A stretch of 64,000 nt of DNA from an uncultured Pseudomonadota bacterium (GTDB lineage: Bacteria > Desulfobacterota > Binatia > Binatales > Binataceae): NCBI GenBank assembly GCA_963805995.1, contig CAWDWL010000005.1, positions 479,509 through 543,508 of the forward strand. The letters are read 5' to 3'. Both the position numbers and the translations under genes were made by a program. Positions 25,134-47,707 of the stretch are shown here, piece by piece; within the stretch, counting starts at the first letter, position 1; every line of letters starts with the position of its first letter. The notes beneath the pieces are model-generated. The model made no database searches, was not told where the DNA came from, and saw only the letters and a program-made list of their open reading frames with translations.

Positions 25134-25168
25134 CCTCTCCCACATTGGTTCGTGGGAGAGGTTTTTTT
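25134..25168 (+). terminator. rho-independent terminator: stem CCTCTCCCAC / GTGGGAGAGG, 8-nt loop, T7 run
   Basis: Perfect 10-bp GC-rich inverted repeat followed by TTTTTTT, 34 bp after the radical SAM stop. Confidence 0.65.
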
Positions 25169-30174: not shown

Positions 30175-31050
30175 TTGAGGCTGACCGTGGCTGAAAGAAG
30201 ACATCCCGACTGGATCAAGGTCCGTGCTCCGACCTCGCCGGAGTTCTTCAAGACCAAGGAACTGCTCAAGCAGATGCGTCTGCACACGGTGTGTCAGGAG
30301 GCGTGCTGCCCGAATATCAGCGAATGCTTTTCCCATCGCACGGCCACTTTCATGCTGATGGGTGACGTGTGCACACGCAACTGCCCGTACTGCGCCGTGG
30401 CGCATGGCAAGGCGCGGACGCTGGACCCGCAGGAACCGTTGCGCGTCGCGCAAGCGGCGGCGCAACTCGGCCTTGCCCATGTGGTGGTCACCTCGGTCGA
30501 TCGCGATGATCTGGCCGACGGCGGCGCCGCCCACTTCGCCGCGACCGCCCGCGCAATCAAGCAACTCGCCCCCGCCACCCGCGTCGAAGTGCTGGTGCCC
30601 GACTTTCAAGGCGTGCATGCGAGCGTTGAAGAAGTCGTGCGGGCTCCAGTGGATATCTACAACCACAATATCGAAACGGTGCCGCGGCTGTACAAAATCG
30701 CGCGCCCCGGCGGGCGCTACCCGCGCTCATTGGAGGTGCTGCGCCACGCCAAGGACACGGCGCGCGGACTGTCCCGCGGCCTGCTCACCAAGGCCGGTAT
30801 CATGCTTGGCCTGGGTGAAGAGATCGACGAAGTGATGGCGGTGCTCAGCGACCTGCGCGAGGTCGAATGCGACATCATCACGCTGGGCCAGTACCTCAGG
30901 CCGTCCAAGGAGCATCTCGAAGTGGTCCGCTACGTGCCGCCGGCGGAGTTCGCCCAACTGCGCGAACGCGCGATGGCGCTGGGTTTTCGTCACGTCGAAT
31001 CCGGCCCGTTGGTCCGCAGCTCCTACCACGCCTGGGAGCACGTCAATTAG
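30175..31050 (+). CDS. lipA: lipoyl synthase
   Basis: Two Fe-S motifs: CCPNISEC and CTRNCPYC. Confidence 0.9.
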   Translation: MRLTVAERRHPDWIKVRAPTSPEFFKTKELLKQMRLHTVCQEACCPNISECFSHRTATFMLMGDVCTRNCPYCAVAHGKARTLDPQEPLRVAQAAAQLGLAHVVVTSVDRDDLADGGAAHFAATARAIKQLAPATRVEVLVPDFQGVHASVEEVVRAPVDIYNHNIETVPRLYKIARPGGRYPRSLEVLRHAKDTARGLSRGLLTKAGIMLGLGEEIDEVMAVLSDLREVECDIITLGQYLRPSKEHLEVVRYVPPAEFAQLRERAMALGFRHVESGPLVRSSYHAWEHVN

Positions 31051-31200
31051 CCGCAAAGCGAAAATCATTGAACCTGTTTACCGCACAAACGCATTGGGGC
31101 AGAGGCTTCTTCTGTCAAAGCGGGAATAGTTTGACGGGTCAGGAGCACATGCGCATTGGGGCAGAGGCTCTTTGCTGTCATCTCTCTTTATCCTAGCCCT
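31051..31200. repeat. two tandem partial copies (about 85 bp period) of the 5' module of the MITE-like element (AAAGCGAAAAT ... GCACAAACGCATTGGGGCAGAGGC)
   Basis: Direct alignment to 31203-31290 and 43458-43540. Confidence 0.5.
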
Positions 31201-31202
31201 AA

Positions 31203-31372
31203 AAGCGAAAATAACTATACGTCCTGAGCGCACGAACACATTGGCGCAGAGCGCCTTTCTGTCCCCTCTCCTTATCTTAGGAGAGGGCGAGGGAGAGGTT
31301 ACACGCTACGACCCTTGATACACATTTCGCCCTCGGCCCGGCATTTCGCCAACAATCTACCTGAATTATTTT
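31203..31372. mobile_element. MITE-like element copy A (about 170 bp) with 13-bp terminal inverted repeats AAGCGAAAATAAY and an internal CCCTCTCC...GGAGAGGG hairpin
   Basis: 5' end AAAAGCGAAAATAACT and 3' end AATTATTTTCGCTTCAG are inverted complements. The internal sequence is about 85% identical to copy B. Confidence 0.55.
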
Positions 31373-31379
31373 CGCTTCA

Positions 31380-32100
31380 GGGTTAGGTTTCTGGTTCTTT
31401 TTCTATTCCCTCCCCTTGTGAGAGTGTCGATAAACTCCACAACCAACCTCGCCCGCGGCTGCGGACTTGGGTACCGCAGGCGCACGCCGGGAGAGGTCGG
31501 CGCGCGATTTGCGCCAGCAAGTCGCGTGACGGGTGAGGGTGCAGGCGGGCTGCAACTGTGTTACGCTACGACCATTCTCCTTCTGCGCCAATGCGTTTGG
31601 CGTTACTTGATGCGTCCAGAAACCCTCCCCTCACCTCTCCCTTATAAATAAAGGGAGAGGTGCAATCCCAAGTCTCTTGATGTTACTAATACCGCTGCAC
31701 TGAGCGGCACCAGCAATTTGTCGACAGTCGCCCTGTGAGACATTCGAAAAATTGTTTGCGGCTTGAAAGTCCGATGCAAATAATTGCCTTACCAGGATCT
31801 GATTGATAGTCTCTCCCCGACCGAGGAGAGGGTCGGGCGCGGGTGGAGAGTGCTGGCGGGCCTGCAGATGCGTGACGCATGCAGGATCTCCTTGTGCCCC
31901 AGCGTGTTTGATCTTACTTGAGGTGTATCAGGACTCTCATCACCTGCCACCACTGAACAGTGGTAGAGGGAAGACGCGCACCTCCTCTTAATAATAGGAT
32001 TGCCCGCTCGGGGTCATCGCCCTTAGCTCGCTTCTTGACACTCTCCATATCCGATCAGGGAAGGGAACAGAATTTAGTCGGCGCGCGGATAAGAAATCTC
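31380..32100. repeat. REP-like repeat thicket, copy B, with fragments in both orientations
   Basis: Contains TTGTTTGCGGCTTGAAAGTCCG, an inverted core GGGTGGAGAGTGCTGGCGGGCCTGCAGATGCGTGACGCATGCAGG, and GGGAAGGGAACAGAATTTAGTCG, all matching 16730-17130. Confidence 0.5.
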
Positions 32101-32355
32101 ACTTTCTGAAAATTTAGTGTAAACGATCTGGCGCGCGGCTACGTCTGAAGTCCGAGCGTTTTTCGGTACGCCGGCTACGAATGCTCGGGCCTCCATTTCC
32201 TGATCATTCAGGGCGCGGATTCATAGCGAGAACTGCGCGGTAAGCTGGCGTAATCAATCCTTCAGATGGAATAGACCGGTTGCGACTTAATTTCTTCTAA
32301 GCTAGCGCAACTGGTCTTTACCATCATTAACAACCCCTGAAGGGAGACTCAGTGC

Positions 32356-33753
32356 ATGTCTAAACCGATACTCGCGGCTTGTTTCGCAACTGTTCTGATA
32401 ATGGCGGATACGGCCCACGCCGGTCCGGCCAATCGCCACCGGCTATCCCACCCGGTTCCGGTGAACTTAAGTGGTTTCGGAGCGCCGCTCCGCGCCATCG
32501 TGAACAATCCAGACGACCTGCAGATTTTCGCCACGGGTCAATCCAACTTCAAAGAGATCGATGAGGTGCCCCAAGTCGGGCCGGTTCTTAACGGGGTCTC
32601 CTGCGCCGGCTGCCATTCTCAGCCATCAATCGGTGGCGCAGGGCTGTTTATCAACGAGATCAGGGTTCGCGACAATGTCGCGCCAGGCCCGGTTCACATC
32701 TTCGCGGTTGATAATATGTTGCGTGGGGGACCGCAGTCACAAAACGGCACGACTATTTTCGCCAACGGCATGCACGCGGAACCGCTGGGATGCCAGATAA
32801 CCGCACCGGGATGCCAACTCTCGGCTTGCCAAAAGGAAGAGGCCGCGCGAACCACCTTCGCCTGGAATCTGCCGGAGTGCGATCCGACCAGCAAGAGCTT
32901 CACCAGCGGCGCCAATTGCGCATCCGGACGCGCAGCCACGCCCACATTCGGTTTGGGTCTGGTCGAAGCGGTGGCGGACCAAACTCTAACCGACCTTGCT
33001 CAAAGTGAACCGGCGGCGGTGCGCGGCACCGCGAGGATGGTCACGGAGGACGGGCAATCGCGTGTGGCGCGTTTTGGCTGGAAGGACGATCATGCGACGC
33101 TGCGCGCCTTCGCCGCGGACGCATACCTCAACGAGATGGGCATTACCAACCCCGACGCGCCGATCGAAGTGAGTTCTTGCGCTCTGGGTCAAAAGCAATT
33201 CGGTGTTCTGCTGCAAACCGACGACGGCATCGAAGACCCCACGGATCCGGATGGGCGCGCGGATATCGATCGCTTTGCGGATTTCATGCGGGCGTTGGAT
33301 GCGCCGCCGGTGCTCGAGCGAAACTTGTCATCTCGCAGCGGGGCGCAGCTGTTCCAGCAAGCCGGTTGCGCGGACTGCCACACGCCGAGCCTTACGACCG
33401 ATACCAATCCCGCGTCATTTGTCCCCACTACCACGGGCGGGATCCCGATCAGTGCGACGCTCAATCTGGCGCTGGCCAGCCATACCTTCCATCCATATTC
33501 CGATTTCCTGCTGCACGACATGGGTTCGCTGGGCGACGGCATCACCTCGGACTCCGCGGGACCTACCATGATGCGCACGGTGCCGCTGTGGGGAATCCGC
33601 GCGAAGTCGGTCTATTTGCACGACGGGCGGGCGCGCGACCTCCCTACCGCAATCACGCTGCATGACGGACAGGGCAAGGCCGCATCCGAAGCGTTTGGGG
33701 CCCTTAGCGCCGAGCAACAACAGGACCTGCTTAACTTCCTCGGCACGATTTAG
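32356..33753 (+). CDS. DUF1111-family di-heme cytochrome c (putative peroxidase / thiol oxidoreductase)
   Basis: Signal peptide, two CxxCH motifs (CAGCHS, CADCHT), and a C-terminal PLWG...YLHDGR...HDGQG MauG/CCP-like motif. Confidence 0.7.
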   Translation: MSKPILAACFATVLIMADTAHAGPANRHRLSHPVPVNLSGFGAPLRAIVNNPDDLQIFATGQSNFKEIDEVPQVGPVLNGVSCAGCHSQPSIGGAGLFINEIRVRDNVAPGPVHIFAVDNMLRGGPQSQNGTTIFANGMHAEPLGCQITAPGCQLSACQKEEAARTTFAWNLPECDPTSKSFTSGANCASGRAATPTFGLGLVEAVADQTLTDLAQSEPAAVRGTARMVTEDGQSRVARFGWKDDHATLRAFAADAYLNEMGITNPDAPIEVSSCALGQKQFGVLLQTDDGIEDPTDPDGRADIDRFADFMRALDAPPVLERNLSSRSGAQLFQQAGCADCHTPSLTTDTNPASFVPTTTGGIPISATLNLALASHTFHPYSDFLLHDMGSLGDGITSDSAGPTMMRTVPLWGIRAKSVYLHDGRARDLPTAITLHDGQGKAASEAFGALSAEQQQDLLNFLGTI

Positions 33754-33956
33754 GCTGGATTGGCCGACTGCCAAAGAAGGCTGCGGCCTGTGACCATCAG
33801 GTAAACCAGAATCATCCGGCGGCGAACTTGCCGCCGGATGATTCTGAAGTTGGTTCGCGCCGATCGCGACAACTCGGTTGCCTGTATGGTTTGGTTGGGT
33901 TACCCTGACACTTAATCAGGAGATTACCCAGCCTCCCTGACAGTGCGTGCAAAATC

Positions 33957-34301
33957 GTGCTTGTTGAGCTAAGAGCCATCGCACATGCCGGCCACGGCCG
34001 GCGAACTGTAGCGGCCGTAGCAGCCAGTCTGCTGCTGACGGCTCAACTGCTCATCGCCGCGCATGTTCATCCGGGGCTGCTCATCAAGAGTGTCTCCGAC
34101 CGCACGCATATGGCCGCTGTCAGCGAGGCCGCCTGCCCGGTCTGCGCACTTCAGGTTCATGCTCCAGGCAGCGCGAACGCGGTATTCCTGTTGATCATCC
34201 CGTTGCTTAGCGAAGCATTCGTCGCGACTGCGAGACGGTCGCGGCTGCTTGGTTTGGCGAAGCCTCAGCTCTTCGGCCGCGCTCCTCCGGCGTCGGCCTG
34301 A
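33957..34301 (+). CDS. small His/Cys-rich protein of uncertain status (possibly a DUF2946-like periplasmic metal-binding protein)
   Basis: 114-aa ORF with AHAGHGRR ... HVHPG ... ACPVCALQVHAPG. Only the genomic context (next to a TonB-dependent receptor) supports it. Confidence 0.2.
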   Translation: MLVELRAIAHAGHGRRTVAAVAASLLLTAQLLIAAHVHPGLLIKSVSDRTHMAAVSEAACPVCALQVHAPGSANAVFLLIIPLLSEAFVATARRSRLLGLAKPQLFGRAPPASA

Positions 34302-34434
34302 TCTCTCCATTTCCCGGAAATTTTCAGTTCCACACACGCGTGTCACGACCGCGTTGCTCATTGCGCGCCGATAAGCCGCGATACGCAAGGCGCGTCGCCC
34401 ACGCCGGAGAGTCAACGAGGTTGAGGAGTTTACG

Positions 34435-36806
34435 ATGCGGAGGATTTTTGTCCCGATTTTGGGATTGTGTGTGATTGCGGGTCTCGTGGGAGGCTCATCG
34501 GCCACTAGCGCCGCTAATAACGCGCAGCCGCAACGCCTGTGGCGGGTACGGTTCAGGATTCGTTGGGCCGTCCGGTGGCGGGCGCGGAGGTCAGCTTGCA
34601 GGCCTCCAACGGTAGGACCGTCGCGAAAGACCCGCAGCGATGCGAAGGGCCGCTTTTCATTTGCTACAGTCAATCCCGGGAATATACGCGGTGACCGCAA
34701 ACAAACAGTCATTCAAGCCCGCGATCAAGATTGCGGCGGTAGAGGCTGGAAGGCCCGCGGAATTGACGCTGGCGATGGCGTCCGAACAGGCGCTTAAGCA
34801 TGACGGTGGTCGCCAAGCGGCTGGACGTGGCGCGCAACAGTCTTTCGCCGCAAACCGGCGGCAGCGTCTATCGCTTCAATGAGCAGTCGATTCATGATCT
34901 GCCGCAGGGCAGCAACACGCCGCTCAACCAGGTGCTCTTGCAGGCGCCGGGCGTAGCGCAGGATTCCTTCGGCCAAATCCACGTGCGCGGCGAGCATGCG
35001 GATCTCCAATACCGAATCAACGGCGTTCAGCTTCCGGAGGGCATCACCGGCTTTGGCCAGGTGCTAAGCCCGCGCTTCGCGCAAAGCCTCAATCTTCTGA
35101 CCGGCGCGCTGCCCGCCGAATACGGTTACCGGACCGCGGGGGTGGTGGACATCCACTCCAAGAGCGGACTGTCGCTTGACGGGGGCGACCTGGACATGTA
35201 CGGCGGCCAGCACAGCACCTTGCAGCCGAGCTTCGAGCTGGGCGGATCGAAGGACAAGCTGGACTACTTCTTCAGCGGCCAGTACCTCCAGAGTCAATTG
35301 GGCGTGGAGCCGCCGACGCCCGGTCCCAGCGCGTACCACGATCAGACCTATCAGGGTCAGGCGTTCAGCTATCTGTCCTATTTCCTTAACCCGACCACAC
35401 GTTTGAGTTTGATCAGCGGCTTCGCGCTAAATCACTTCCAGATTCCGGACAATCCCAATCAGCCGCAGGTCTTCCAGCTTGCGGGCGCGCCATTTTATCC
35501 CTCGGCCAACATCAACGAGAACCAGCTGGAGCAGAATTACTTCGGCGTCCTGTCACTGCAGGGAACGATCGGGGCCAAGTTCGATTATCAACTGTCGGCA
35601 TTCAGCCGTTATTCGACGCTTTCGTTTTACCCGGACGAGATAGGCGATCTGATCTACAACGGCGCCGCTTCGCGGATTTTCCGCAGTAGCTGGTCCAACG
35701 GCCTGCAAGGCGACAGCAGCTATCGCCTCGACGATCAGCATACGATCAGAGCCGGTTTTTGGTTCAGCGGCGAACGGGCGGAAATCGACAATCATGAAAC
35801 GGTTTTTCCCGCCAACCCTGACGGGAGCCAAGCCAGCGAAACGCCGCTTCCACCGATCGTCGACAACCGCGCGATAACCGCGTGGCTCTACGGCATTTAT
35901 ATCCAGGACGAATGGCGTCCGACCGAACAGATCACGATCAACTATGGCACGCGCTTCGACCTTTATGACGGTATCGTGCGCGCCGACCAGGCCAGTCCGC
36001 GGGTCGGCCTGGTCTATAAGCCGTTCAAGCGCACGACGCTTCACGCGGCCTACGCGCGCTACTTCGCGCCACCCCCGACCGAGCTGGTAACCGTCGAAGC
36101 GGTGAACAAATTTGCCGGCACCACCGGCGCGCCACCAACCCCCTATAGCGGCAATCCCTCGCCCGAGCGCTCGCATTACTTCGACGTCGGAGCGCTCCAG
36201 GAACTGCTCCCGGGCCTCCACGTAGGCATCGACGCCTACTACAAGAAGTCCACTGATCTGATTGACGAAGGGCAATTCGGTCCCGCGATCATCTTTTCAA
36301 CATTTAACTATCGAAAGGGCCGAAACTATGGCGTCGAGTTCACCGGCTCATATAACCATAAAAATCTCACTGCATATGCGAACTTTGCGTATGCAGTCGC
36401 CCAGGGAACGCAAGTCGAGTCGGGACAGTTCAATTTCACACCTGCTGAGCTAGCCTACATCGCCAACCACTACGTCTTCCTGGACCACGATCAGACCTTC
36501 ACCTCGTCGGCAGGCGCGGCTTACCAATGGAAGGGATTCAACTTTCTCCTTGATGGCCTGTATCAGAGCGGATTGCGCGAGGGTTTTGCCAACACCCGCA
36601 ACCTGCCTTACTACATCCAGGTCAATGTCGGCGCCACCCGGGAGTTCACGGTGCCCAAGGTGGGCGACCTGCAAGCCCGGATATCGGTGCTTAATCTGTT
36701 CGATCGCACCTATCAAATTCGCGGCGGCAGCGGGATTGGCGTGTTTGCGCCCCAGTTCGGACCCCGGCGCGCACTGTACGCCGGCCTGAAATGGGAGATA
36801 CCATTT
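34435..36806 (+). CDS. TonB-dependent receptor with an N-terminal carboxypeptidase-regulatory-like domain; the N-terminal 360 bp is split over three reading frames and there is no in-frame stop before exbB
   Basis: Signal peptide MRRIFVPILGLCVIAGLVGG (frame 1). CarbopepD segments AGTVQDSLGRPVAGAEVSLQASNGRTVAK (frame 0), TRSDAKGRFSFATVNPG (frame 1) and IYAVTANKQSFKPAIKIAAVEAGRPAELTLAMAS (frame 2). Plug plus barrel from ATG 34800, ending ...GRRALYAGLKWEIPF. Confidence 0.6.
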
Positions 36807-36887
36807 CTCAAGGCGCCACCCGCAATTGGCGCAAACGACCAACTAAACCGAGGGTATCAGCGGATTTTCCTCATTAATGGAGTTGAT

Positions 36888-37562
36888 ATGCATGCACTAC
36901 AAGCAGCGTGGGATACGCTCCGGTACGGCGGGGCGATGGTTTACCCGTTGCTGGTTCTCGGGGTTCTCGCGATAGCCATCATCCTGGATCGTTGCGTGGC
37001 GTACTTTCGATGTTTGCGGCTGCCGGCCGCGCTGGCCAACCTGGTCGAGACCTACGGCTTTTCCTGGGATGAACTCGAAAAGCAGCTTGAACAGCTCGGA
37101 CCCGGCAATGCCTACGGACGGTTCCTGAAGGTAATCGCCGACAATCGAACCGACCCCGCGTGGTGGGTGGAGTCGCGCGCCGGGGATGAAGCCGGCCTCA
37201 TCGAGAAAGTTCTCAATCGCGGACTATGGCTGCTGGAAACCGTGGTCACCGCGGCGCCCCTGATGGGCCTGCTCGGCACCATCACCGGGATGATGGCGGC
37301 ATTCAACGTAATCGGCAGCTCAGGTCTGGTCGCGCCGCATGAGGTGACGGCGGGCGTGGCCCAGGCCTTGATCGCGACCGCGCTGGGCCTGTTCATCGCG
37401 CTGATCTCGCTGTTCGGATTCAACTTCTTCTCGCGGATGCAATCTCACGCGATGGACCGCATGGAACGGCTGGGCTCGCGCCTGGTCGATCATATCCGCC
37501 TGGATCAGGAAAACGCGGCCACCGATCCCGAATCGGCGGTGCGGCGCGTGCAATCGCGATGA
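36888..37562 (+). CDS. exbB: MotA/TolQ/ExbB proton-channel protein
   Basis: Three-transmembrane MotA/ExbB core (LMGLLGTITGMMAAFNVI ... ALIATALGLFIALISLFGFNFF). Own GGAG Shine-Dalgarno plus ATG at 36888. It is in frame with the upstream TonB-dependent receptor ORF. Confidence 0.75.
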   Translation: MHALQAAWDTLRYGGAMVYPLLVLGVLAIAIILDRCVAYFRCLRLPAALANLVETYGFSWDELEKQLEQLGPGNAYGRFLKVIADNRTDPAWWVESRAGDEAGLIEKVLNRGLWLLETVVTAAPLMGLLGTITGMMAAFNVIGSSGLVAPHEVTAGVAQALIATALGLFIALISLFGFNFFSRMQSHAMDRMERLGSRLVDHIRLDQENAATDPESAVRRVQSR

Positions 37563-37572
37563 GGACGCATCG

Positions 37573-37974
37573 ATGAAACTCAAGCGGGCGCGCGGATACC
37601 GGCGCGGACGAATCGAAATCATCCCCATGATCGACGTCATGTTCTTCCTGCTGGTGACTTTCATGCTGGCGTCGCTGGCGATGCAAAGCCTTAACTCAGT
37701 GACGGTAAACCTGCCCAAGGGACAAGCCGAAGCCATCAAACATCAGGAGCCGGTAACCCTGACCGTAACCAAGGACCAGCGACTGTTCCTGGACAAAACG
37801 CCGGTGTCGCTCGACCGCCTCGCGTTTACCCTTAAGCCGATGCTCCAGGAGCATGACCCGGGGTTGGTGGTTAACGCCGATACCGCCGCGCCGGAGGGCA
37901 TCGTGGTCCAGGCGATGCTGCAGGCGCGCCGCGCCGGGGTCGAGCATTTCCAGATTGCGGTCAAGCGCGAATGA
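37573..37974 (+). CDS. exbD: ExbD/TolR biopolymer transport protein
   Basis: IIPMIDVMFFLLVTFML transmembrane helix plus an ExbD periplasmic domain. Confidence 0.8.
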   Translation: MKLKRARGYRRGRIEIIPMIDVMFFLLVTFMLASLAMQSLNSVTVNLPKGQAEAIKHQEPVTLTVTKDQRLFLDKTPVSLDRLAFTLKPMLQEHDPGLVVNADTAAPEGIVVQAMLQARRAGVEHFQIAVKRE

Positions 37975-38774
37975 ACGCTAGCCATCACCTGCGCTTTGCC
38001 GAAGACTTCGACGAGCCGTGGCGCCGGCTGCCCTGGGTCATCCTCGCCGCGCTGCTGAGTTGGATTTTGCTGCTCGGCGGTTTCGCCAAGCTGCTCGAAC
38101 GCAAACCCGCGCCCGAGGCTCCGCCAACCACCATCGAAGCCCGCATCATCGAGATGCCTCCCCCCGCCGGTTTGCAGGGCGGCGGCTCCGCTGGCGGGAC
38201 GCCGGCGGTCGCGCATCCCGCGCCCATCGTGCGTCCCGTGCCCAAGCCGGTGCATGTGGCGAAACTCAAGCCGATTCATCATGTCCACAAGGTCAAGGCG
38301 GCATCGGTGATTACGGAACCTCTCTCGCCCTTCGGCACCGCCAAGCACGTCGAGCATCCCGAACCGGCGGCACCTGCAATTGCGTCGAAGGGACCGTCGG
38401 GCGGAGTCAGTAAGAGCCGCGGCCGCACCGCAGGTGCGGAAGGCGGCGGTGAGGGTGGCATCGGCGGCGGGACGGGGTCAGGCAGCGGCGTCGGGATTGG
38501 CAGTGACAGCGCCGGCGCCAGAGCCATGTTTGCGCCAACCCCCACGATACCCGACGACCTGCGGGAAGGCGCATTCTCGACGATGGCGGTGGCGCACTTC
38601 AGGGTCTCCCCAGAGGGCAACGTCGAGGTGACGCTAATCAAGCCAACGCCGAATCCACGGCTCAATCAGATCCTGCTCGACACGCTCAAACAGTGGAAGT
38701 TCTTCCCCGCCATGAAAAACGGCATCGCAATCGCCTCCGAGTTCGAAGTCCGCATCCCCATCGCCGTGCAATAG
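37971..38774 (+). CDS. tonB: TonB-family energy transducer
   Basis: N-terminal transmembrane anchor, a Pro-rich spacer (PAPEAPPTT...PVPKPV), and a C-terminal TonB_C domain (FRVSPEGNVEVTLIKPTPNPRLNQILLDTLKQWKFFP). Confidence 0.7.
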   Translation: MNASHHLRFAEDFDEPWRRLPWVILAALLSWILLLGGFAKLLERKPAPEAPPTTIEARIIEMPPPAGLQGGGSAGGTPAVAHPAPIVRPVPKPVHVAKLKPIHHVHKVKAASVITEPLSPFGTAKHVEHPEPAAPAIASKGPSGGVSKSRGRTAGAEGGGEGGIGGGTGSGSGVGIGSDSAGARAMFAPTPTIPDDLREGAFSTMAVAHFRVSPEGNVEVTLIKPTPNPRLNQILLDTLKQWKFFPAMKNGIAIASEFEVRIPIAVQ

Positions 38775-38794
38775 TATGGCTGGGAGGCGCGGGT

Positions 38795-39060
38795 TTGTTC
38801 CCTCTCCCACGTTTAGTTGTGGGAGAGGACGAGGGTTCTGATACCCTCAAGTAAGATAAATGCACTGGCGCGCAGCGAGATCCCGCATGCGTGACACACC
38901 TTTGCAGGCCCGCCTGCACCCTCTCCCGGGCGCCAAAATTTTGAGGTCTGGCGCTGAACAGCAAGCGCCAGACGCTAAGGACCCTCACCCGGCACTCGCA
39001 GACTCGCGCCGGCCTCTCCCCTCCGGGAGAGGCAGTCCCGGGACGCGTCATGCGAAAATC
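38795..39060. repeat. REP-like repeat, copy C (hairpin CCCTCTCCCAC/GTGGGAGAGG plus the core GCATGCGTGACACACCTTTGCAGGCCCGCCTGCACCCTCTCCC)
   Basis: About 85% identical to 16855-17025. The hairpin stem is identical to the terminator stem at 25134. Confidence 0.55.
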
Positions 39061-39260
39061 TATTATCGCTTTGCTGCTAACTCTTGCGGCCGCGCTGAGC
39101 CAACTCCTCGGCGGAATCGATCAGGCTTTGCAAGAAGCTCTCGCCGGATCAAGAACGATACCTGGCCACGGACCCATCAAAGCCAATCAACCTGGCCGAC
39201 CCCGACGTCGCGGCGTTGGTTGAATCGCGAGTTTTTCGATCCATTCATTGTCCATCGCCG

Positions 39261-40424
39261 TCAGCCCTTTCCCACTTGGTTGAAAAAGGCGCGGATGTCG
39301 CCGGCCAGCAGCGCCGGTTCTTCCATCGCGGCGAAATGACCGCCGCGCGGCAGCTCGGTCCAGCGCTTGATGTTGTAAGCCTTCTCCGCGTAGTCGCGCG
39401 GCGGTCTGATCATCTCGCCGGGAAACAGCGCGATGCCGGTGGGCGCCTCGACGCGCTCGCCGGGGGCCAGACGATAAGGGCTGTGCCTGACCTCGTAGTA
39501 CAGGCGGGTGGATGAATTGATGCTCTGCGTGACCCAGTAGATCGTGATGTTGGTCAACAGTTGATCCTTGGTGAAGCGGCTCTCGACATCGCCCCCGCAA
39601 TCGCTCCAGGTGCGGAACTTCTCGACGATCCAGGCCGCCAGGCCGGCCGGCGAATCGTTAAGTCCATAGGCCAGGGTCTGCGGCTTGGTGCCCTGGATCT
39701 GCTGATAGCCGCTTTCATTGGATTGGAATTTTTTCGCCCCGTCCAGGAAGCGCTTGGCCTCCTCACCGCTACCCAGCGCCTTGCGCCCCTCCGGTGGTCC
39801 CAGGGCAACCATATTCAGATGGACGCCGATTACGCTCTTTGGATAGGCGTGGCCCACGCGCGAGGCGATGATCGAGCCCCAATCGCCACCCTGCACGCCG
39901 AAGCTCCGATAACCCAGCACTTGCGTCATCAACTCGTGGAAGATTTCCGCGATTGGCTCGATCTTCATCCCCGGCACGCGGGGATCATCGGAGAACCCAT
40001 AGCCGGGCAGCGACGGCGCCACGACGGTAAACGCGTCGCGCGCGTCGCCGCCGTGGCGCGCCGGATCGGTGAGCATCGGAATAATCTGCTGAAACTCGGC
40101 GATCGAACCCGGCCATCCGTGCAGCAGCAACAGCGGCGTCGGATTGGGACCAATGCCAGGCTGATGGATGAAGTGGATGGAACAGCCATTGATCGGCACC
40201 TTGAAATGGCTGAACGCGCCCAGGTCGCGTTCGTGCTTGCGCCAGTCGTAGCTGGTGCGCCAGTACTCGATCAGTTCCTTCAGATAGCCACGGTTGGTGC
40301 CATATTCCCATCCCGAGTCGGCGACCTCGCCTGGCAGGCGCGTGCGCGCCAGCCGCTCGCGCAGATCCGCCAGCACTTGGTCGGGAACCGCGATCGTGAA
40401 TTTCTCCACCGCCCCATGCGCCAT
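39261..40424 (-). CDS. epoxide hydrolase (microsomal EH family, N-terminal EHN domain plus alpha/beta hydrolase)
   Basis: EHN N-terminal domain and HGWPGS oxyanion-hole motif. Confidence 0.8.
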   Translation of the reverse strand: MAHGAVEKFTIAVPDQVLADLRERLARTRLPGEVADSGWEYGTNRGYLKELIEYWRTSYDWRKHERDLGAFSHFKVPINGCSIHFIHQPGIGPNPTPLLLLHGWPGSIAEFQQIIPMLTDPARHGGDARDAFTVVAPSLPGYGFSDDPRVPGMKIEPIAEIFHELMTQVLGYRSFGVQGGDWGSIIASRVGHAYPKSVIGVHLNMVALGPPEGRKALGSGEEAKRFLDGAKKFQSNESGYQQIQGTKPQTLAYGLNDSPAGLAAWIVEKFRTWSDCGGDVESRFTKDQLLTNITIYWVTQSINSSTRLYYEVRHSPYRLAPGERVEAPTGIALFPGEMIRPPRDYAEKAYNIKRWTELPRGGHFAAMEEPALLAGDIRAFFNQVGKG

Positions 40425-40437
40425 CGGTGTTCTCCTC

Positions 40438-40875
40438 TTACGCGCCCTTGCGCGCCAGCGCTTCCTTGACCAGTTCGCTGGCTAATTTACCGTCCAGCCG
40501 GGCGCCGAACTCGTCCTTGAGCGCCTTCATTAGCGGACCGATTTGGGCCACGCCCGCCGCGACCTTGGCGTCGATCGCGGCGCGGATTTCGTCGGCTCCG
40601 ACGCCGGCGGGAATGTACGCGTCCAGGATTTTGGCCTCGGCTTCGTTCTGGATAATCAGGTCCTGCCGATTTGCCTGCCGCGCGAAACCCAGCGCCTCTT
40701 CGCGGCGGGCCCGTTCGCGCTTGAGAATCTGCACAATTTCGGCTTCGTTGGCGTCGCGGCAAACGTCCTTTTCCAGGCGAGTGATCTCGGTCAAAACGCC
40801 GCGGATAGTCATGACTGTGGCCGTGTCGCGCGCCTTCATCGCCGTTTTCAGATCGTCTTGAAATCGCGCCTTCAT
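40438..40875 (-). CDS. GatB/YqeY domain protein
   Basis: Full-length YqeY-like helical protein (MKARFQDDLKTAMKARD...). Confidence 0.8.
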   Translation of the reverse strand: MKARFQDDLKTAMKARDTATVMTIRGVLTEITRLEKDVCRDANEAEIVQILKRERARREEALGFARQANRQDLIIQNEAEAKILDAYIPAGVGADEIRAAIDAKVAAGVAQIGPLMKALKDEFGARLDGKLASELVKEALARKGA

Positions 40876-40951
40876 AGCCTAACAGTACGCGATCAAAGCG
40901 CGGCCGTCCAAACACCCGGGATTCCAAAACCTCCTGGATAATCCGTTCCGT

Positions 40952-41653
40952 TCACGTGCGCGGCGCTACCGACACGTAACGGTTGCCGCGTTCGTAAAAG
41001 CGCCAGGGTTTTGCCGCCCAGGTTCCGGCGTAATCGACGTTGATTCGCGCCGAGCGGCCAATTTTGCCGGCCGGCAGGCCCGCGTCCTCCAGGTACAACT
41101 CCCCGCCGCATAAGTCGCGTCCGTAATCATCGCCGGTGATGGCCAGGGCCTGGGTCAGCTTGCCGGGACCGTTGGTGAGTTCGCGCGAACCCGCGGGTTG
41201 GTTGCGCCGCCGCGCCATCAAATCCAATCCGCGCAAGGGCTCCAGCGCCCGAATCAGGACTGCGTGGGGTTCGCCTTCCGCGGTGGTCACCAGGTTCATC
41301 GCCCAACAGGTGCCATATAGTCTAAAGACATAGGCGTGTCCGGGCGGTCCGAACATCACCGCCGTGCGCCGGGTCAATCCACGGGCGCTGTGTGCGGCCA
41401 GATCCAACGGGCCGCGATAGGCCTCCGCCTCGACGATTCGTCCCGCTGCCTCGCCTTCGGGGGTGCGATGGACCAGGACCTTTCCGACGCATTCGCGCGC
41501 GACCACCAACACCGGGCGGGCGTAAAAGTCGCGGCCAATGGTCAGCCCGTTATCGGCGCAGAAACATTGCGGCGAGCTTTTGATCCGCGATGCCCGGATT
41601 TTGATTTCCATGAGTGCCAGCATCTTGTACCCGTTTTCGAACACTTTACTCAA
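40952..41653 (-). CDS. mpg: DNA-3-methyladenine glycosylase (AAG/MPG family)
   Basis: FYARP...AEAYRG...HAYVFRLYG motifs. The start may be an internal Met (41611 or 41623). Confidence 0.8.
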   Translation of the reverse strand: MSKVFENGYKMLALMEIKIRASRIKSSPQCFCADNGLTIGRDFYARPVLVVARECVGKVLVHRTPEGEAAGRIVEAEAYRGPLDLAAHSARGLTRRTAVMFGPPGHAYVFRLYGTCWAMNLVTTAEGEPHAVLIRALEPLRGLDLMARRRNQPAGSRELTNGPGKLTQALAITGDDYGRDLCGGELYLEDAGLPAGKIGRSARINVDYAGTWAAKPWRFYERGNRYVSVAPRT

Positions 41654-41718
41654 TGCCGCCGGCGATTTCCTTTTTTACAGATTTAACCACCAATATCCGG
41701 TTATTTTGTTGAGGTGTT

Positions 41719-43191
41719 TTGGCTATGAATCAGGCGTGCAAACAGCCGCGCTACTTCCACTTGCTGTGGGACGAGGACCTCGACGAACTGCGCGAGGTGC
41801 TGGAATGCATCCGTGATCGGCGCGGTGAGGTCCTGTCCAACTGGTACAAAATCTATCTGTTGCATTTCGGCGATGAGCGCAGCCTTTCAGAAGCCGAGTT
41901 CACGCGCATCTTCGAGCCGATCCTGCTGCGCAATCAGGACGCGTTACTGCGCAAAGACATGGACAGCTATGCGGCCAGTGTGCTGCTGACCGGCAAGCAA
42001 CTGGCCCAACGGCACGTCCCGCTTGATGAGGTAATCGCCACCGTTCAGCTTTTCGAAGAAGCCGCGCAATCCGCATTCCCACACAACCCGCCGCCGTCGC
42101 TTGCGGTTTACACCAAGTTCGACAAGCTCAACCATATACGAATCATCTTGCTGGTCGGCGCCTATATGCAGGTGGATTCGGCGGCGACCGCGGCGCGAAT
42201 CCACGCGTTGGAACTCGAGGCCACGAATCTGCCCCCCGAAGAACGGACCCGCTTTCACGGACTGGTGGGCCACAGTGTCGTTATGCAGCGTCTTTATGGC
42301 CAAATCGAAGCCGCCGCACGCATCGATGGGCCGTTATTGATTGTCGGGGAACGTGAGACCGGAAAGGAACTCCTCGCCCGCGCGGTCCACGAATGCGGGT
42401 CGCGCCGCGACGCGCCTTTCGCCGTGCTGAGGTGTTCGGCCTTGCCCAGTTACCTGATCGAAAACGAACTGTTCGGCTACCAGCGCCAGGGCAACAACGG
42501 CGGTCCCGGGCTGTATCTCGGCTTATACAAAACCACCGAGGGCGGAACTCTCTTCCTGCGTGAGATTACCGCACTACCCTCTGACGTTCAGTTGCGGCTG
42601 GTGCGAACCATTAAAGCGGCCGTAGCCGCTGACGCACGGAGCAAGGTCAGAATCGTGGCCTCGATTAGCTGCGACCCGCGGGAGGCCATCGGATCAGGCC
42701 AGCTGCGCGAGGACTTTTATCGATGCTTCCAGGATCACATGCTGTCAATGCCACCACTTCGGCAGCGCCTCATCGATCTTCCCCTGCTCACGAGGCATTT
42801 TATCGACCTGCTCAATGGACGGATGATCCGCAGGAACGCCGTGATTGGAATCGATGATGCGGCGCTCGACGCGATGGAGCGCTACTCCTGGCCGGGTAAT
42901 GTCAATGAGCTGCATGATGCAGTCGAGAGCGCGTTCGCATACGGGCGTTCGCCGATGATTGGGCTCGGTGATTTACCCGAGGGAATCAGCGGGATCAGCA
43001 GCCAGGCCAAGCCCTTGCCGACGATCTCGTTTGAAACCTTTGCCGACGCCGAATGCGCCATCCTGAAGCGTGCCCTACAGATCACCGGAGGCAACAAGGT
43101 CCGCGCCGCGAAACTGCTGAAAATCTCGCGCAAGAAGCTCTACAGCGGTATCGCGAAATACGGCATCAATTCCGCCAGCGCATTAGTCTGA
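41719..43191 (+). CDS. sigma-54-interaction-domain (AAA+) Fis-family regulator with a degenerate GAFTGA loop and an uncharacterised N-terminal domain
   Basis: Walker A GERETGKE, Walker B, and a C-terminal Fis helix-turn-helix RAAKLLKISRKKLY. The position of GAFTGA reads GYQRQGNNGGPG. Confidence 0.8.
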   Translation: MAMNQACKQPRYFHLLWDEDLDELREVLECIRDRRGEVLSNWYKIYLLHFGDERSLSEAEFTRIFEPILLRNQDALLRKDMDSYAASVLLTGKQLAQRHVPLDEVIATVQLFEEAAQSAFPHNPPPSLAVYTKFDKLNHIRIILLVGAYMQVDSAATAARIHALELEATNLPPEERTRFHGLVGHSVVMQRLYGQIEAAARIDGPLLIVGERETGKELLARAVHECGSRRDAPFAVLRCSALPSYLIENELFGYQRQGNNGGPGLYLGLYKTTEGGTLFLREITALPSDVQLRLVRTIKAAVAADARSKVRIVASISCDPREAIGSGQLREDFYRCFQDHMLSMPPLRQRLIDLPLLTRHFIDLLNGRMIRRNAVIGIDDAALDAMERYSWPGNVNELHDAVESAFAYGRSPMIGLGDLPEGISGISSQAKPLPTISFETFADAECAILKRALQITGGNKVRAAKLLKISRKKLYSGIAKYGINSASALV

Positions 43192-43457
43192 CGGCCTCTC
43201 GAACGATAAAACGATAACCTTCTCGAACTATAAACGAGGACCAAGGCCGTCGTACCCCGGCCATTGGTTAGTTTTGGAGGGCCCTCGATAGCAACGGCCG
43301 CCCCCGCTTGACTCACGTCCATGCCTCGGGCCCTCCGCAGGTACGTTAAAGCAGTATCCATGCCTGCCCGAATCGCTAATCAGACGCTTCTATTCGCAAT
43401 AATCGGCCGAACTCGTACCGCTTTTCGATCAAACAGAACCGCTGCGAAACAATTAGC

Positions 43458-43643
43458 CTAAAGCGAAAATAATTCTGCGCCTTGAGCGCACGAACACCTT
43501 GGCGCAGAGGCGCTTTCTTTTCCCTCTCCTTATCCTAGGAGAGGGCCAGGGAGAGGTTACACGCTACGGTCCACGACACAGATTTCGCTTACGGCCACTG
43601 ATCTCGCGCGAAACCACTACCCAGAATTATTCTCGCTTTGAGC
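43458..43643. mobile_element. MITE-like element copy B (186 bp) with an 18-bp terminal inverted repeat AAAGCGARAATAATTCTG (17 of 18 match)
   Basis: The 5' AAAGCGAAAATAATTCTG and the reverse complement of the 3' end AAAGCGAGAATAATTCTG match, with a single mismatch. The internal module and hairpin match copy A. Confidence 0.6.
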
Positions 43644-43736
43644 TTAGAAGGCCAAAAGCTTGGCGGGGATGCATTCTATAGCTACAGCAATATGCCGGAG
43701 ATTGCTTAGGCGCGACCATATATGCACATGGTAGTG

Positions 43737-43910
43737 TTAACCGCTGCGGTTTGTCGCATCAGGTGTATCCATTCGAGACAGTTTCAACTCGGGCATCCGT
43801 GGCAGCGCGTTTGGCGCGTTCGCCATAGACGCGGGGAAGATAGCGGCGCCGCCAGGCCGACGGTCGAGCCGGAGGGCGATATGGGTGTCGAGTAAGAGGC
43901 TATCGCTCAC
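43737..43910 (-). pseudogene. truncated PIN-domain (VapC-like) toxin remnant of 57 codons
   Basis: GTG overlaps the vapB stop in a GTGA arrangement. The N-terminus VSDSLLLDTHIALRLD resembles the PIN N-terminal motif, and the ORF ends after 57 aa, where a VapC would run to about 130. Confidence 0.3.
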
Positions 43911-44161
43911 CGTTCGACTTCCCGGCCGGTCTCGGCATCGGGCTCGACCTCGAGAGCGGGCGCGATGAGGTCCACGCCTTCACGAACCCGCACCGAGCCG
44001 CGATGCGCCCCAAACAGGGAGCCCGCGCGGGCGTTCTGTTCCAGCAGGCGCCGTACGGCCAAAGCGACCGCTTCGGTCTTGTTCCCGCCAGTCAGCCGTT
44101 GGGCTGCTTCTTCGATAAGAGCCACAACCTCCGGACGGCTGATATTTACCACGTTTGCCAT
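43907..44161 (-). CDS. VapB / Rv0623-like (PSK) antitoxin-type small DNA-binding protein
   Basis: 84 aa (MANVVNISRPEVVALIEEAAQRLTGGNKTEAVALAVRRLLEQ), the typical antitoxin fold size, positioned immediately upstream of the PIN remnant. Confidence 0.5.
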   Translation of the reverse strand: MANVVNISRPEVVALIEEAAQRLTGGNKTEAVALAVRRLLEQNARAGSLFGAHRGSVRVREGVDLIAPALEVEPDAETGREVER

Positions 44162-44286
44162 GGCGCAACCTCAAGTCATTATGAAAGTACTTGTTAATGG
44201 GCCATCGCGGCAATGCAAACAGAGCCACCCTATCCCTGGCTCCGCCATAGATAAAACGCCCTGACGCGTCTATCCATTTTGGGTCC

Positions 44287-44342
44287 GGCTAACGAATAAT
44301 CGGCGGGCCATAGATGTGGTACACCATCAAGTGGACAGATGG
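44287..44342. repeat. 55-bp direct repeat R1, a displaced copy of the 3' end of the DUF420 gene
   Basis: About 87% identical to 47651-47707. On the minus strand it encodes ...[14 protein letters not shown] followed by a stop, matching the last 14 of the 17 repeat-encoded C-terminal residues of the DUF420 reading frame. Confidence 0.6.
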
Positions 44343-44548
44343 AAAATCATCAGCAAAAACTAGCTGTTTTTTGTAGCATCGCCGAAAAAGTAGCCGCCAG
44401 GTAAGCAGCCGAACGGGTCCCTCAGCCGGAATGAGCGAGCGCCAACGCGATCAGGACCAGCGCCAGGACGATCGCGGCCAGCACCCATCGGCCGGAAATG
44501 CCAGTGCCCTGACTCCAGACAGGCACCGGATGCCCTTCCCCGCCGAGC

Positions 44549-44827
44549 CTATTCCCCGATTGCCTTTCTGATGGCATCAGCGAGTTTGCGCGCGTCCTGC
44601 ACGGAAAAGGTAAACGACGAGGTGCCTTGTGCGGTGCCCCGCTCGCTAGCGTTATCGTTTTGCGTGCTGAAACTTAGCGTCACGCTTGGGCTGCCAAGCT
44701 CGGAGAATACGGCGATCTGAACCAGATACGTTTCTGCCATTTGGGGCTGGCCCGCAATGTATGCCTCAAGATGTTTCGACGGTTCGATGCAGATTACTTC
44801 CGGAACGGCGGTGACGATCTTTGTCAT
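44549..44827 (-). CDS. hypothetical protein
   Basis: 92-aa ORF with non-random composition. No family recognised. Confidence 0.3.
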   Translation of the reverse strand: MTKIVTAVPEVICIEPSKHLEAYIAGQPQMAETYLVQIAVFSELGSPSVTLSFSTQNDNASERGTAQGTSSFTFSVQDARKLADAIRKAIGE

Positions 44828-45287
44828 AACACCTCCCTATACTACGAGTCGGGCCAAAGTGCGTAGGAGATCCCGACGGTCCGGCGGATCCCGCGCCTGC
44901 CAACCGTGACATGGGCGCCGCGGATCCCGAAGCTCAGGCTCGGCCCGGAAATCGAAAAGTTGACCGAAAGGCCCGGAATGATGCGGACCCGGCGATAGAA
45001 GTGCAGGCCCATCTCACGCCGGCCGGCAATCGAAGCTTAGCGCCTGGCCGCCGCATCGCGGGCAGGCTTCCAGAGCGCAATAGAAGTGGTGAAATTGGCC
45101 CGGTCTGACGCCGCAATCGCGGCAGGCGTCTTTCCCATATCGCGGCCAGTACACGACCCGAGGATAATCCTTTGGGATTCGAGCGGGACCAGAGCCCCGC
45201 AAATTTGAGCGTGGTTACGGTGCAGCCTCCGCCAGCCCGGATAGGGATCCCGCAACAGCGCCAGAGGTTCGGACTTCGGTTTTTCGA

Positions 45288-45560
45288 TCACTTCGCACCG
45301 CGTTTTGGCCGCGGAAGTTGAGCGTTGGCCTGGACGTATTCGCGCAACGCCCGCCGGAGGACCTGGCTGACCGTTTCATCGCGAGCCTTCGCGACCCGCT
45401 CGGCTTGCGCCTTGAGCGACGGGTCGACTCTGAAAATGATATTGCTAGCGGCATGGCTCCGTATATACATTACACGACCGATGCGGCGCAACTTGGTTGA
45501 TTCCCCATTCCAAAGAGGAAGGTCGGAAATGAACCAGGGATTCATCCCCAAACCGAGCAA
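45288..45560 (-). CDS. ribbon-helix-helix (CopG/ParD-like) protein
   Basis: IFRVDPSLKAQAERVAKARDETVSQVLRRALREYV beta-strand plus two helices. The start is probably an internal Met. Confidence 0.5.
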   Translation of the reverse strand: MLGLGMNPWFISDLPLWNGESTKLRRIGRVMYIRSHAASNIIFRVDPSLKAQAERVAKARDETVSQVLRRALREYVQANAQLPRPKRGAK

Positions 45561-46401
45561 CGATAAGCGAGCGCCCAGCGGGGCAGGCAGTGAGGTTTGT
45601 TGATATGAATATCTTCGCCGAACAGGTTTGCCGCCATAGCCGCTTTTGCAACCGCGTCAGAAACCAGGTCCAGAAACGGTTGTTAAAACGCCGCCGCCGG
45701 CGCGCAGAAAAATTCGAGCCGGAAAACGCCCCAACTAAAAACCGCTATCGCGGATGGAGCGATTAGCCGAAACAGGTAAAGGCCGAACCCCCAAGAGCCC
45801 GAGCCTTTTGAACAGAGTCTCGGGGTTTTCTTTTGAGACATTCTTGCAGTTTTATGATCGATAAAACCGGCGCCTCATGATCCATAACCCGCCCCGAAAC
45901 CCACCGAGGTTATTATCGATAATCCGCCCGGAAATCGCTCGCCTGATGCCCTGCCGGTGCGCCAGGAGCCGTCCGGCGATGAGCCCGCCTATATATCGCT
46001 CGCGAAAGGCGAAAGCGAAAGGCCCGTTGAGCCCGGCCGAGCGCCGCGGGGCCGGGCACTGTCCTGAATGGGGGCTGAGTGCCCTAATTTGAACGGATGG
46101 TCTTTGTCATACCGTTGGACCTCTGTAGTTACGGCGACTGCGCCGCTCCACGATAATTATCAAGATTACAGCGGGACTCAAAATCACGTAAGCAATAAGA
46201 ATGCGTTGCCAATGGGTAAAACGCCAGCCTAAAAAGAACGCAAAAACAAACACGCCGACTATACTGAGCGCGGTGACGAGCTGGGCCGCCATCGGGGGCT
46301 TCATCGATTGTTTGTTCTGGCCGCTCATTCGCACTTGCCGCAATGCCACCTTTACAACTTCGCGTGTCCTAATTTCCAGCCCTCAGTCCTAAAGTCGGAC
46401 A

Positions 46402-47650: not shown

Positions 47651-47707
47651 CGGCTAACGAATAATCGGCGGGCCGTAGATGTGATAGACCATCAGGTACA
47701 CGATTAC
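47651..47707. repeat. 55-bp direct repeat R2, the native 3' coding end of the DUF420 gene
   Basis: See R1. It encodes ...[17 protein letters not shown] followed by a stop on the minus strand. Confidence 0.6.

What the first reader, a model, noticed from the sequence alone, without database searches (positions are those of the whole stretch)
31203..43643. Two copies of a roughly 170-186 bp MITE-like element with 13-18 bp terminal inverted repeats
Copy A (31203-31372) and copy B (43458-43643) share a 5' module (AAAGCGAAAATAA...GCACGAACACMTTGGCGCAGAG), an internal CCCTCTCCTTATCYTAGGAGAGGG hairpin, GTTACACGCTACG, and a near-perfect inverted terminal repeat (AAAGCGARAATAATTCTG in copy B, 17 of 18). 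Copy A is preceded by two tandem partial units. Copy B abuts a truncated vapC, which may mark a disruptive insertion. The element is non-autonomous, with no transposase.
Basis: seen in the sequence. Interest (0 to 1): 0.6.

Follow-up and report, generated by a model that had tools for sequence, protein, structure and literature searches.

The report
IS1380-type MITE in a Binataceae genome
The two ~186-bp repeats are real copies of a small non-coding mobile element (a MITE) that borrows the transposase of a 1.5-kb IS1380-family insertion sequence; one copy inserted so recently that closely related strains still show the empty site. This is an ordinary kind of element, newly documented in an uncultured soil lineage.

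Summary
Copy A is 31197-31382 (186 bp) and copy B is 43457-43643 (187 bp). They are 77-85% identical, depending on the alignment, with ~20-bp terminal inverted repeats of consensus CCCTRAAGCGARAATAAT.

Copy B is flanked by a perfect 4-bp duplication, TTAG. It is exactly absent from two 97-99%-identical relatives, which carry a single TTAG there.

The same termini bound two kinds of element in public metagenomes and MAGs:
- dozens of ~187-198-bp elements, 20 of 21 complete ones with perfect YTAR duplications;
- ~1,510-bp elements encoding a 458-aa IS1380-family transposase (NCBIfam NF033539, 248.8 bits against a cutoff of 180). One of these lies in a Candidatus Binatia MAG, the class of the window's host (Candidatus Binataceae).

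The two 'tandem partial units' are truncated older copies. Copy A sits in the hairpin loop of the second.

The vapC remnant ends 93 bp away and is truncated identically in strains that lack copy B.

No transposase lies in the window, and the genome-wide copy number could not be measured.

Verdict: a genuine, recently active MITE and a new member of a known kind. Interest is modest.

The parts
31047..31050 (+). TTAG immediately before partial unit 1. It contains the lipA stop codon TAG (31048-31050) and is the presumed old target site.
   Evidence: Sequence; lipA ORF 30175-31050.
31051..31116 (+). Partial unit 1. A degenerate 5' fragment of the MITE: the left inverted repeat CCGCAAAGCGAAAATCAT plus the CATTGGGGCAGAG box.
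   Evidence: Repeat family D1; nhmmer profile positions 4-63, E=5e-6. Present in relatives L001, L002, L147 and L150.
31117..31196 (+). Partial unit 2. The 5' 80 nt of an older MITE copy, running into the left arm and loop of its hairpin and ending at CTAG (31193-31196), exactly where copy A begins. This reads as a nested insertion.
   Evidence: profile positions 5-84, E=2e-6; sequence.
31197..31382 (+). MITE copy A, 186 bp. Left inverted repeat 31197-31215, right inverted repeat 31363-31382, hairpin 31264-31287. Flanked by CTAG (31193-31196) and TTAG (31383-31386), a 3-of-4 match.
   Evidence: E=5e-43. Its 3' half plus 36 bp of right-hand flank (31279-31418) is deleted in relatives L001, L002, L147 and L150.
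43453..43456 (+). Left copy of the 4-bp target-site duplication TTAG of copy B.
43457..43643 (+). MITE copy B, 187 bp. Left inverted repeat 43457-43477, right inverted repeat 43622-43643 (17/18 over the AAAGCGARAATAATTCTG core), hairpin 43522-43545.
   Evidence: E=5e-47. Precisely absent from L001 and L147, which read AATTAG|AGGCC. 95.7% identical to a copy at an unrelated locus, L030.
43644..43647 (+). Right copy of the target-site duplication TTAG of copy B.

Best explanation
Copies A and B belong to a ~187-bp MITE family that is mobilised in trans by the DDE transposase of a ~1,510-bp IS1380-family insertion sequence.

Proposed mechanism: the transposase recognises the ~20-bp termini. One end resembles the IS end downstream of the transposase gene (CCCTRAAGCGARAATAAT) and the other resembles the upstream end (CCTCAAAGCGARAATAAT). 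It joins the element to a YTAR tetranucleotide with a 4-nt stagger, and repair of the stagger gives the 4-bp duplication.

History at the two loci:
- Copy B inserted at a TTAG between the sigma-54 activator gene and a decayed vapBC locus, after this strain split from its 97-99%-identical relatives.
- Copy A is older (its flanks now read CTAG/TTAG). It landed in the hairpin loop of a still older, now truncated copy, downstream of lipA.

Shown: anatomy, duplication, empty site, many independent insertions elsewhere, shared termini with a transposase-bearing element, and the family assignment of that transposase.

Inferred: that this transposase is the one that moved these copies, and that an active copy exists or existed in this genome.
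For: 1. Empty site. L001 and L147 (97-99% identical over more than 12 kb) lack exactly 43457-43643 plus one of the two TTAG tetranucleotides, so they keep a single TTAG.

2. Termini and target in collections scanned without any flank constraint. Five further elements of 181-190 bp in four MAGs share the termini. Counting copies A and B as well, 12 of 14 flanks are YTAR, against about 1.6% expected per flank.

3. Metagenome scan for YTAR plus the terminus. There are two size classes. Of the 21 complete short elements (187-302 bp, mostly 187-198 bp), 20 have a perfect 4-bp duplication. There are 11 elements of 1,499-1,515 bp, plus two of 3.5 kb that carry an inserted reverse-transcriptase (group-II-intron-like) gene.

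4. The long elements encode a 458-aa protein that matches NCBIfam NF033539 'IS1380 family transposase' at 248.8 bits (cutoff 180) and Pfam PF13701 at E=1.3e-38.

5. Of 113 metagenomic ends with enough sequence, 31 cluster with the internal sequence of copies A/B and 66 cluster with IS ends. L030 is 95.7% identical to copy B at an unrelated locus. L125 carries an A-type fragment directly abutting a full IS.

6. Host link. Window proteins cluster at 90% identity or more with proteins named Candidatus Binataceae. A full IS in a Candidatus Binatia MAG (L152, 1,515 bp) has ends CCTTGAAGCGAAAATAGT and CCTCAAAGCGAAAATAAT and flanks TTAG/CTAA.

7. No coding capacity and no known RNA family. Rfam gives no hit even at E<=1.
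Against: - No IS1380-type transposase is encoded in the 64-kb window or in the ~20-kb relatives' loci around it. Co-residence of MITE and IS in this very genome is therefore not shown.
- Only the ~20-26-bp termini are shared between MITE and IS; the interior is unrelated. The link rests on termini, target and duplication length.
- The metagenome pattern itself required YTAR on one side, so target preference is independently measured only on the other flank and in the MAG hits.
- Only 5 of 13 long elements have identical flanks on both sides. This may reflect collapsed-repeat assembly or recombination.
- Copy number in this genome is unknown; only two full copies per 64 kb were seen.
Confidence: 0.9

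Rival explanations
1. The element is derived from and mobilised by an IS5-family element, because IS5 itself inserts at YTAR with a 4-bp duplication.
For: The target YTAR and 4-bp duplication match what is reported for IS5 (PMC5009759). IS711 of the IS5 family also targets YTAR (PMC2266754).
Against: The only transposase-bearing elements found with these termini encode an IS1380-family protein. NF033539 scores 248.8 bits, and no IS5-family model is listed at E<=0.001. The termini start with CC, as I recall for IS1380, and not with the GG I recall for the IS5 group (my own knowledge, not tested here).
Confidence: 0.04
2. A and B are a local segmental duplication or a non-mobile REP-like intergenic repeat, not a transposable element.
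For: Only two full copies lie in the window. The interior contains a CTCTCC...GGAGAG hairpin of a type found 8 times in the window against 0.07 expected, so part of the sequence resembles a host intergenic repeat.
Against: There is a precise presence/absence polymorphism with a 4-bp duplication. Dozens of copies sit at unrelated flanks in other genomes, with perfect duplications. A transposase-bearing partner shares the termini.
Confidence: 0.02
3. The element is primarily a functional RNA or regulatory module (terminator, mRNA-stabilising hairpin or protein-binding site), and its mobility is incidental.
For: The interior architecture is kept across subfamilies that are only 57-65% identical: the CAYTGGCGCARRG box, the hairpin and the GAGGGAGAGGTT box. 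Single-strand folds are more stable than shuffles, z=-4.05 and -2.95. Both copies lie just downstream of convergent or terminating genes.
Against: There is no Rfam hit. The covariation term is only -1.04 kcal/mol, and most both-sided changes lie in the inverted repeats. Promoter- and terminator-like sites are no more frequent than in shuffles. Much of the fold stability comes from the terminal inverted repeats.
Confidence: 0.04

Closest known systems
IS1380 family insertion sequences (e.g. IS1247, ISEcp1, ISPme1)
   Same: The autonomous partner encodes a single DDE transposase that passes the NCBIfam IS1380 equivalog model. It has short terminal inverted repeats and makes a 4-bp duplication. 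IS1247 is listed at 1,672 bp, inverted repeats 16/13 and a 5-bp duplication (PMC3281130). IS1380 members are also known to move adjacent DNA as 'transposable modules' (PMC3281130). That offers a route by which unrelated DNA could come to lie between two ends.
   Different: The transposase is only 24-27% identical to plasmid-borne IS1380 members, so it belongs to a distant clade seen almost only in metagenomes and MAGs. At ~1,510 bp the element is at the short end of the family. It has a strict YTAR target. The window holds only the non-autonomous derivative.
Prokaryotic MITEs (Correia/NEMIS, RUP, MITEAba12, QMITE and others)
   Same: Small size (~187 bp), terminal inverted repeats, a target-site duplication, no ORF, an intergenic location, multiple diverged copies, and termini matching an IS.
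   Different: A 2024 review of prokaryotic MITEs (PMC10969869) does not contain the term IS1380, and my literature search found no described IS1380-derived MITE. The interior is not a deletion derivative of the IS.
IS5 (Escherichia coli)
   Same: Target YTAR and a 4-bp duplication (PMC5009759).
   Different: The transposase family is different and the termini differ.

Membership tests
MITE (non-autonomous DNA transposon) | Small size (roughly under 300 bp) with no coding capacity | tested here: met
   186 and 187 bp. The only overlapping ORF is a 60-codon frame crossing copy B (43499-43681); it was not itself scanned against Pfam. No tblastn match to the transposase.
MITE (non-autonomous DNA transposon) | Terminal inverted repeats | tested here: met
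   ~20-bp repeats, 17/18 in the core of copy B. The consensus CCCTRAAGCGARAATAAT is kept in all family members.
MITE (non-autonomous DNA transposon) | Target-site duplication and an empty site in a relative | tested here: met
   TTAG/TTAG at copy B, with a single TTAG in L001 and L147. 20 of 21 complete metagenomic copies have a perfect 4-bp duplication.
MITE (non-autonomous DNA transposon) | Multiple copies at unrelated loci | tested here: met
   31 A/B-type ends with mostly distinct flanks in metagenomes; a few loci recur across samples. MAG copies L011 and L012. Copy number within this genome was not measurable.
MITE (non-autonomous DNA transposon) | Termini shared with an autonomous element that encodes a transposase | tested here: met
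   1,499-1,515-bp elements with the same termini and flanks.
IS1380 family (as mobilising partner) | Transposase matches the family model above its curated cutoff | tested here: met
   NF033539 at 248.8 bits against a cutoff of 180; PF13701 at 132.8 bits against 34.7. The test was made on metagenomic full-length copies, not on a gene in the window.
IS1380 family (as mobilising partner) | 4-5-bp direct repeats and single-ORF organisation (family description from my own knowledge; IS1247 values from PMC3281130) | tested here: met
   4-bp duplications; one 458-aa ORF fills the element.
IS1380 family (as mobilising partner) | The transposase actually mobilises the MITE | not testable with these tools
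   Requires a transposition assay.
IS1380 family (as mobilising partner) | Partner IS present in the same genome as the MITE | tested here: inconclusive
   Absent from the window and from the relatives' loci. Present in a Candidatus Binatia MAG and next to an A-type fragment in L125.
IS5-family-derived MITE | Cognate transposase belongs to the IS5 family | tested here: not met
   The partner is IS1380 by NCBIfam, and no IS5 model is listed.
REP/REPIN | No target duplication; association with a RAYT (Y1) transposase | tested here: not met
   A perfect 4-bp duplication and a DDE partner.

The most novel reading that the evidence does not exclude
The MITE is more than a passive parasite. Its conserved core comprises the CAYTGGCGCARRG box, the CCCTCTCC...GGAGAGGG hairpin and the GAGGGAGAGGTT box. 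This core may be a captured host intergenic module that the IS1380-type transposase now spreads through Binatia genomes, so that insertions deliver a ready-made terminator, stabiliser or protein-binding site next to genes. It may have arisen through the one-ended 'transposable module' behaviour known for IS1380 members.
Probability: 0.12. Interest if true: 0.55.

Novelty: new member of a known kind. Interest (0 to 1): 0.3.

Why it matters
- It gives a clean, strain-resolved example of recent MITE transposition in Candidatus Binataceae, an uncultured lineage known only from metagenomes.
- It ties a widespread metagenomic repeat family to a distant clade of IS1380 transposases, and defines that clade's termini, its YTAR target and its 4-bp duplication.
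- Practically, these repeats break short-read assemblies: many metagenomic hits end ~138 bp into the element. They can also be mis-called as small genes.
- The filled/empty polymorphism is a usable strain marker.
- It does not change any general view of how MITEs work.

Tried and rejected
- **vapC disruption by copy B: rejected.** The 57-codon remnant has the same stop in empty-site relatives. An intact 142-aa PIN gene is seen only in L150, where the whole segment differs.
- **Plasmid collection, DNA mode, with the L011 copy:** no match.
- **Viral contigs with the terminus pattern:** 13 hits, all apparently coding sequence shared between phage contigs (some with a helicase-like DEAH motif), with no partner terminus. 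These are chance matches.
- **Four of the nine genome-contig hits** (L004, L006, L008, L009) are unrelated sequences that satisfy the pattern by chance.
- **Rfam at gathering and at E<=1:** nothing.
- **Consensus folding of 18 family members:** little covariation outside the inverted repeats, so I make no RNA-structure claim.
- **Promoter and terminator scans:** not above shuffles.
- **Preference for inserting into hairpin loops:** not seen in 116 metagenomic flanks, although copy A itself lies in one.
- **IS5-family origin suggested by the YTAR target:** rejected on transposase typing.
- **The 140-bp difference at copy A:** I first considered it an insertion in the window. It is better read as a deletion in the relatives, because the window's version is the complete element with the family's normal 3' half.
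Full report
**Observation.** The two repeats are present as described.
- A pairwise alignment gives 85% mean column identity. An ungapped comparison gives 82% over 148 nt, and the family alignment gives 77%.
- The true limits are therefore 31197-31382 for copy A (186 bp) and 43457-43643 for copy B (187 bp).
- A profile built from 18 family members hits copy B at E=5e-47 and copy A at E=5e-43, the two upstream units at about 1e-6, and nothing else in the window.

**Host and relatives.** Window proteins fall in 90%-identity clusters whose named members are from Candidatus Binataceae MAGs, and the window's own contig is 608 kb. Exact-protein look-ups returned syntenic loci from other assemblies that are 97-99% identical in DNA: L001, L002, L147 and L150.

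**Evidence of mobility.**
- L001 and L147 align to the window without interruption, except that 43457-43643 is missing.
- They read ...CAATTAG|AGGCC..., whereas the window reads ...CAA[TTAG]-element-[TTAG]AAGGCC....
- This is a textbook filled/empty pair with a 4-bp target-site duplication.
- Copy A is flanked by CTAG and TTAG, a 3-of-4 match, as expected for an older insertion.
- All four relatives lack 31279-31418, which is the 3' half of copy A plus 36 bp of flank.
- The window's version has the complete family architecture. I therefore read this difference as a deletion in the relatives, between copy A's hairpin and a degenerate hairpin-like sequence at about 31406-31425, and not as an insertion in the window (inference).

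**Copies elsewhere.**
- A scan of 185,579 species genomes required both 12-nt terminus cores 138-168 nt apart. It gave nine loci, five of which are real elements of 181-190 bp (L005, L007, L010, L011, L012) from four MAGs.
- L011 is 85% identical to copy A along its whole length. The others share the termini but differ partly or wholly inside.
- Counting these five elements plus copies A and B, 12 of 14 flanking tetranucleotides are YTAR.
- Many hits lie ~138 nt from a contig end, the signature of a multicopy repeat that breaks assemblies.
- Where the partner terminus was on the contig, there were two main size classes. There are 21 complete short elements (187-302 bp, mostly 187-198 bp), 20 of which have identical 4-bp flanks. 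Eleven elements are 1,499-1,515 bp and two are 3.5 kb.
- The left-hand YTAR was imposed by the search pattern, but the matching right-hand tetranucleotide was not.
- Flanks are diverse, so most of these are independent insertions, although a few loci recur across samples.
- L030 is 95.7% identical to copy B but sits in unrelated DNA.

**The autonomous partner.**
- Each ~1.5-kb element carries one 458-aa ORF.
- This protein matches NCBIfam NF033539, 'IS1380 family transposase', at 248.8 bits against a curated cutoff of 180. It matches Pfam PF13701 at E=1.3e-38.
- The 3.5-kb versions are the same IS interrupted by a reverse-transcriptase gene that looks like a group II intron.
- Homologues are very numerous in metagenomes: more than 3,357 clusters at E<=1e-30, most on contigs of 1.5-2 kb. 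A few carry NCBI names such as 'IS1380 family transposase [Candidatus Binatia bacterium]'.
- One such copy (L152, GCA_050736275.1) is 1,515 bp. Its ends are CCTTGAAGCGAAAATAGT and CCTCAAAGCGAAAATAAT, and its flanks are TTAG and CTAA.
- A related IS in L146 has the variant core ATCCGA in place of AAGCGA.
- The protein is only 24-27% identical to IS1380-family transposases on sequenced plasmids, so this is a distant clade.
- MITE and IS share only the terminal 20-26 bp.
- The MITE keeps the slight asymmetry of the IS ends, CCCTRAAGCG at one end and CCTCAAAGCG at the other.
- The window encodes no such transposase.

**The tandem partial units.**
- Unit 1 (31051-31116) begins directly after a TTAG that contains the lipA stop codon.
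- Unit 2 (31117-31196) matches profile positions 5-84. It runs into the hairpin loop and stops at CTAG, exactly where copy A begins.
- The simplest reading is a stack of old insertions, with copy A nested in the loop of unit 2 and the remainder of unit 2 later lost.
- The loop of the family's hairpin (CYTAGG) itself contains a YTAR site.
- A general preference for such loops is not seen in metagenomic flanks.

**vapC.**
- The PIN-like ORF at 43737-43910 (minus strand) is 57 codons long and has no Pfam hit.
- It ends 93 bp from copy B.
- L001 lacks copy B and has the same stump with the same stop. L147 has the identical empty junction.
- An intact 142-aa PIN gene occurs in L150, where the whole segment from about 43331 to 43863 is different.
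- The truncation therefore has another cause.

**Function beyond transposition.**
- The interior keeps the same order of blocks in subfamilies that are only 57-65% identical: the CAYTGGCGCARRG box, the CCCTCTCC...GGAGAGGG hairpin and the GAGGGAGAGGTTRC box.
- CTCTCC...GGAGAG hairpins occur eight times in the window against 0.07 expected, six of them outside the MITEs.
- A ~20-nt module, AAACGCATTGGSGCAGAR, is shared with a second repeat family.
- This hints that the core derives from, or acts like, a host intergenic repeat.
- I found no positive evidence of function, however. Rfam is empty, covariation is weak, and terminator- and promoter-like sites are at background.
- The low folding energies owe much to the terminal inverted repeats.

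**Comparison with known systems.**
- The element works like any bacterial MITE and passes each defining test I could run.
- Its partner is a member of the IS1380 family by the curated model.
- YTAR with a 4-bp duplication is the published behaviour of IS5 (PMC5009759), and IS711 also targets YTAR (PMC2266754). The transposase typing nevertheless excludes an IS5 origin.
- IS1380 members are known to mobilise adjacent DNA as transposable modules (PMC3281130). This is a plausible but untested route to a MITE whose interior is unrelated to the IS.
- A 2024 review of prokaryotic MITEs does not mention IS1380. I could not consult ISfinder.

**Verdict.** It is a new member of a known kind in an uncultured lineage. 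Interest is modest.

Noticed in passing
window 16822-17015 (+), 31540-31735 (-), partial at 38879-38930 and 31846-31874: A second intergenic repeat family of ~190 bp, 80-90% identical between copies. It has its own CCTCTCCC...GGGAGAGG hairpin and a ~20-nt module (CCAAACGCAYTGGCGCAGAAG) shared with the MITE's internal box. No terminal inverted repeats or duplications were looked for.
   Followed up: partly
window 17008-17027, 25135-25160, 31635-31659, 31811-31830, 38802-38827, 39014-39031: Six further CTCTCC-loop-GGAGAG hairpins outside the MITE copies. With the two MITE hairpins that makes 8 in the window against 0.07 expected. This looks like a REP-like intergenic hairpin class in this genome.
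   Followed up: partly
L150 2261-3572, corresponding to window position ~31537: One relative carries a ~1.3-kb insertion encoding a Transposase_20 (IS110-family-type) protein, at the edge of the second repeat family in the lipA-DHOR spacer. The window lacks it.
   Followed up: no
window 47058-47093 and 47131-47166: Two 36-nt direct repeats (CTTCAMTCCCMTAACCGRGGAATCGTCCACTGGAAC, 92% identical) separated by a 37-nt spacer, resembling a two-repeat orphan CRISPR array.
   Followed up: no
window 44286-44332 and 47651-47697: 47-nt direct repeats (91% identical) bracket a ~3.3-kb segment (about 44339-47658). This segment is replaced by different sequence, including a second, intact vapBC pair, in relatives L147 and L150. 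It may be an indel or island boundary.
   Followed up: partly
window 43737-44161 (-): A decayed vapBC locus: an intact 84-aa VapB-like antitoxin gene (43907-44161) followed by a 57-codon PIN stump (43737-43910). The decay predates copy B and is independent of it.
   Followed up: yes
L045 and L055 (metagenome loci): Two copies of the IS1380-type element are 3.5 kb long because a reverse-transcriptase gene (PF00078, group-II-intron-like) lies inside the transposase gene. Both still have perfect CTAG or TTAG duplications.
   Followed up: partly
window 34800-37562 (+): The mechanical ORF list shows one 920-aa frame joining TonB-dependent-receptor and MotA/ExbB domains. Relatives have separate 803-aa receptor and 224-aa ExbB genes. 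This suggests a frameshift or a read-through artefact in the window, or a mis-joined ORF.
   Followed up: no
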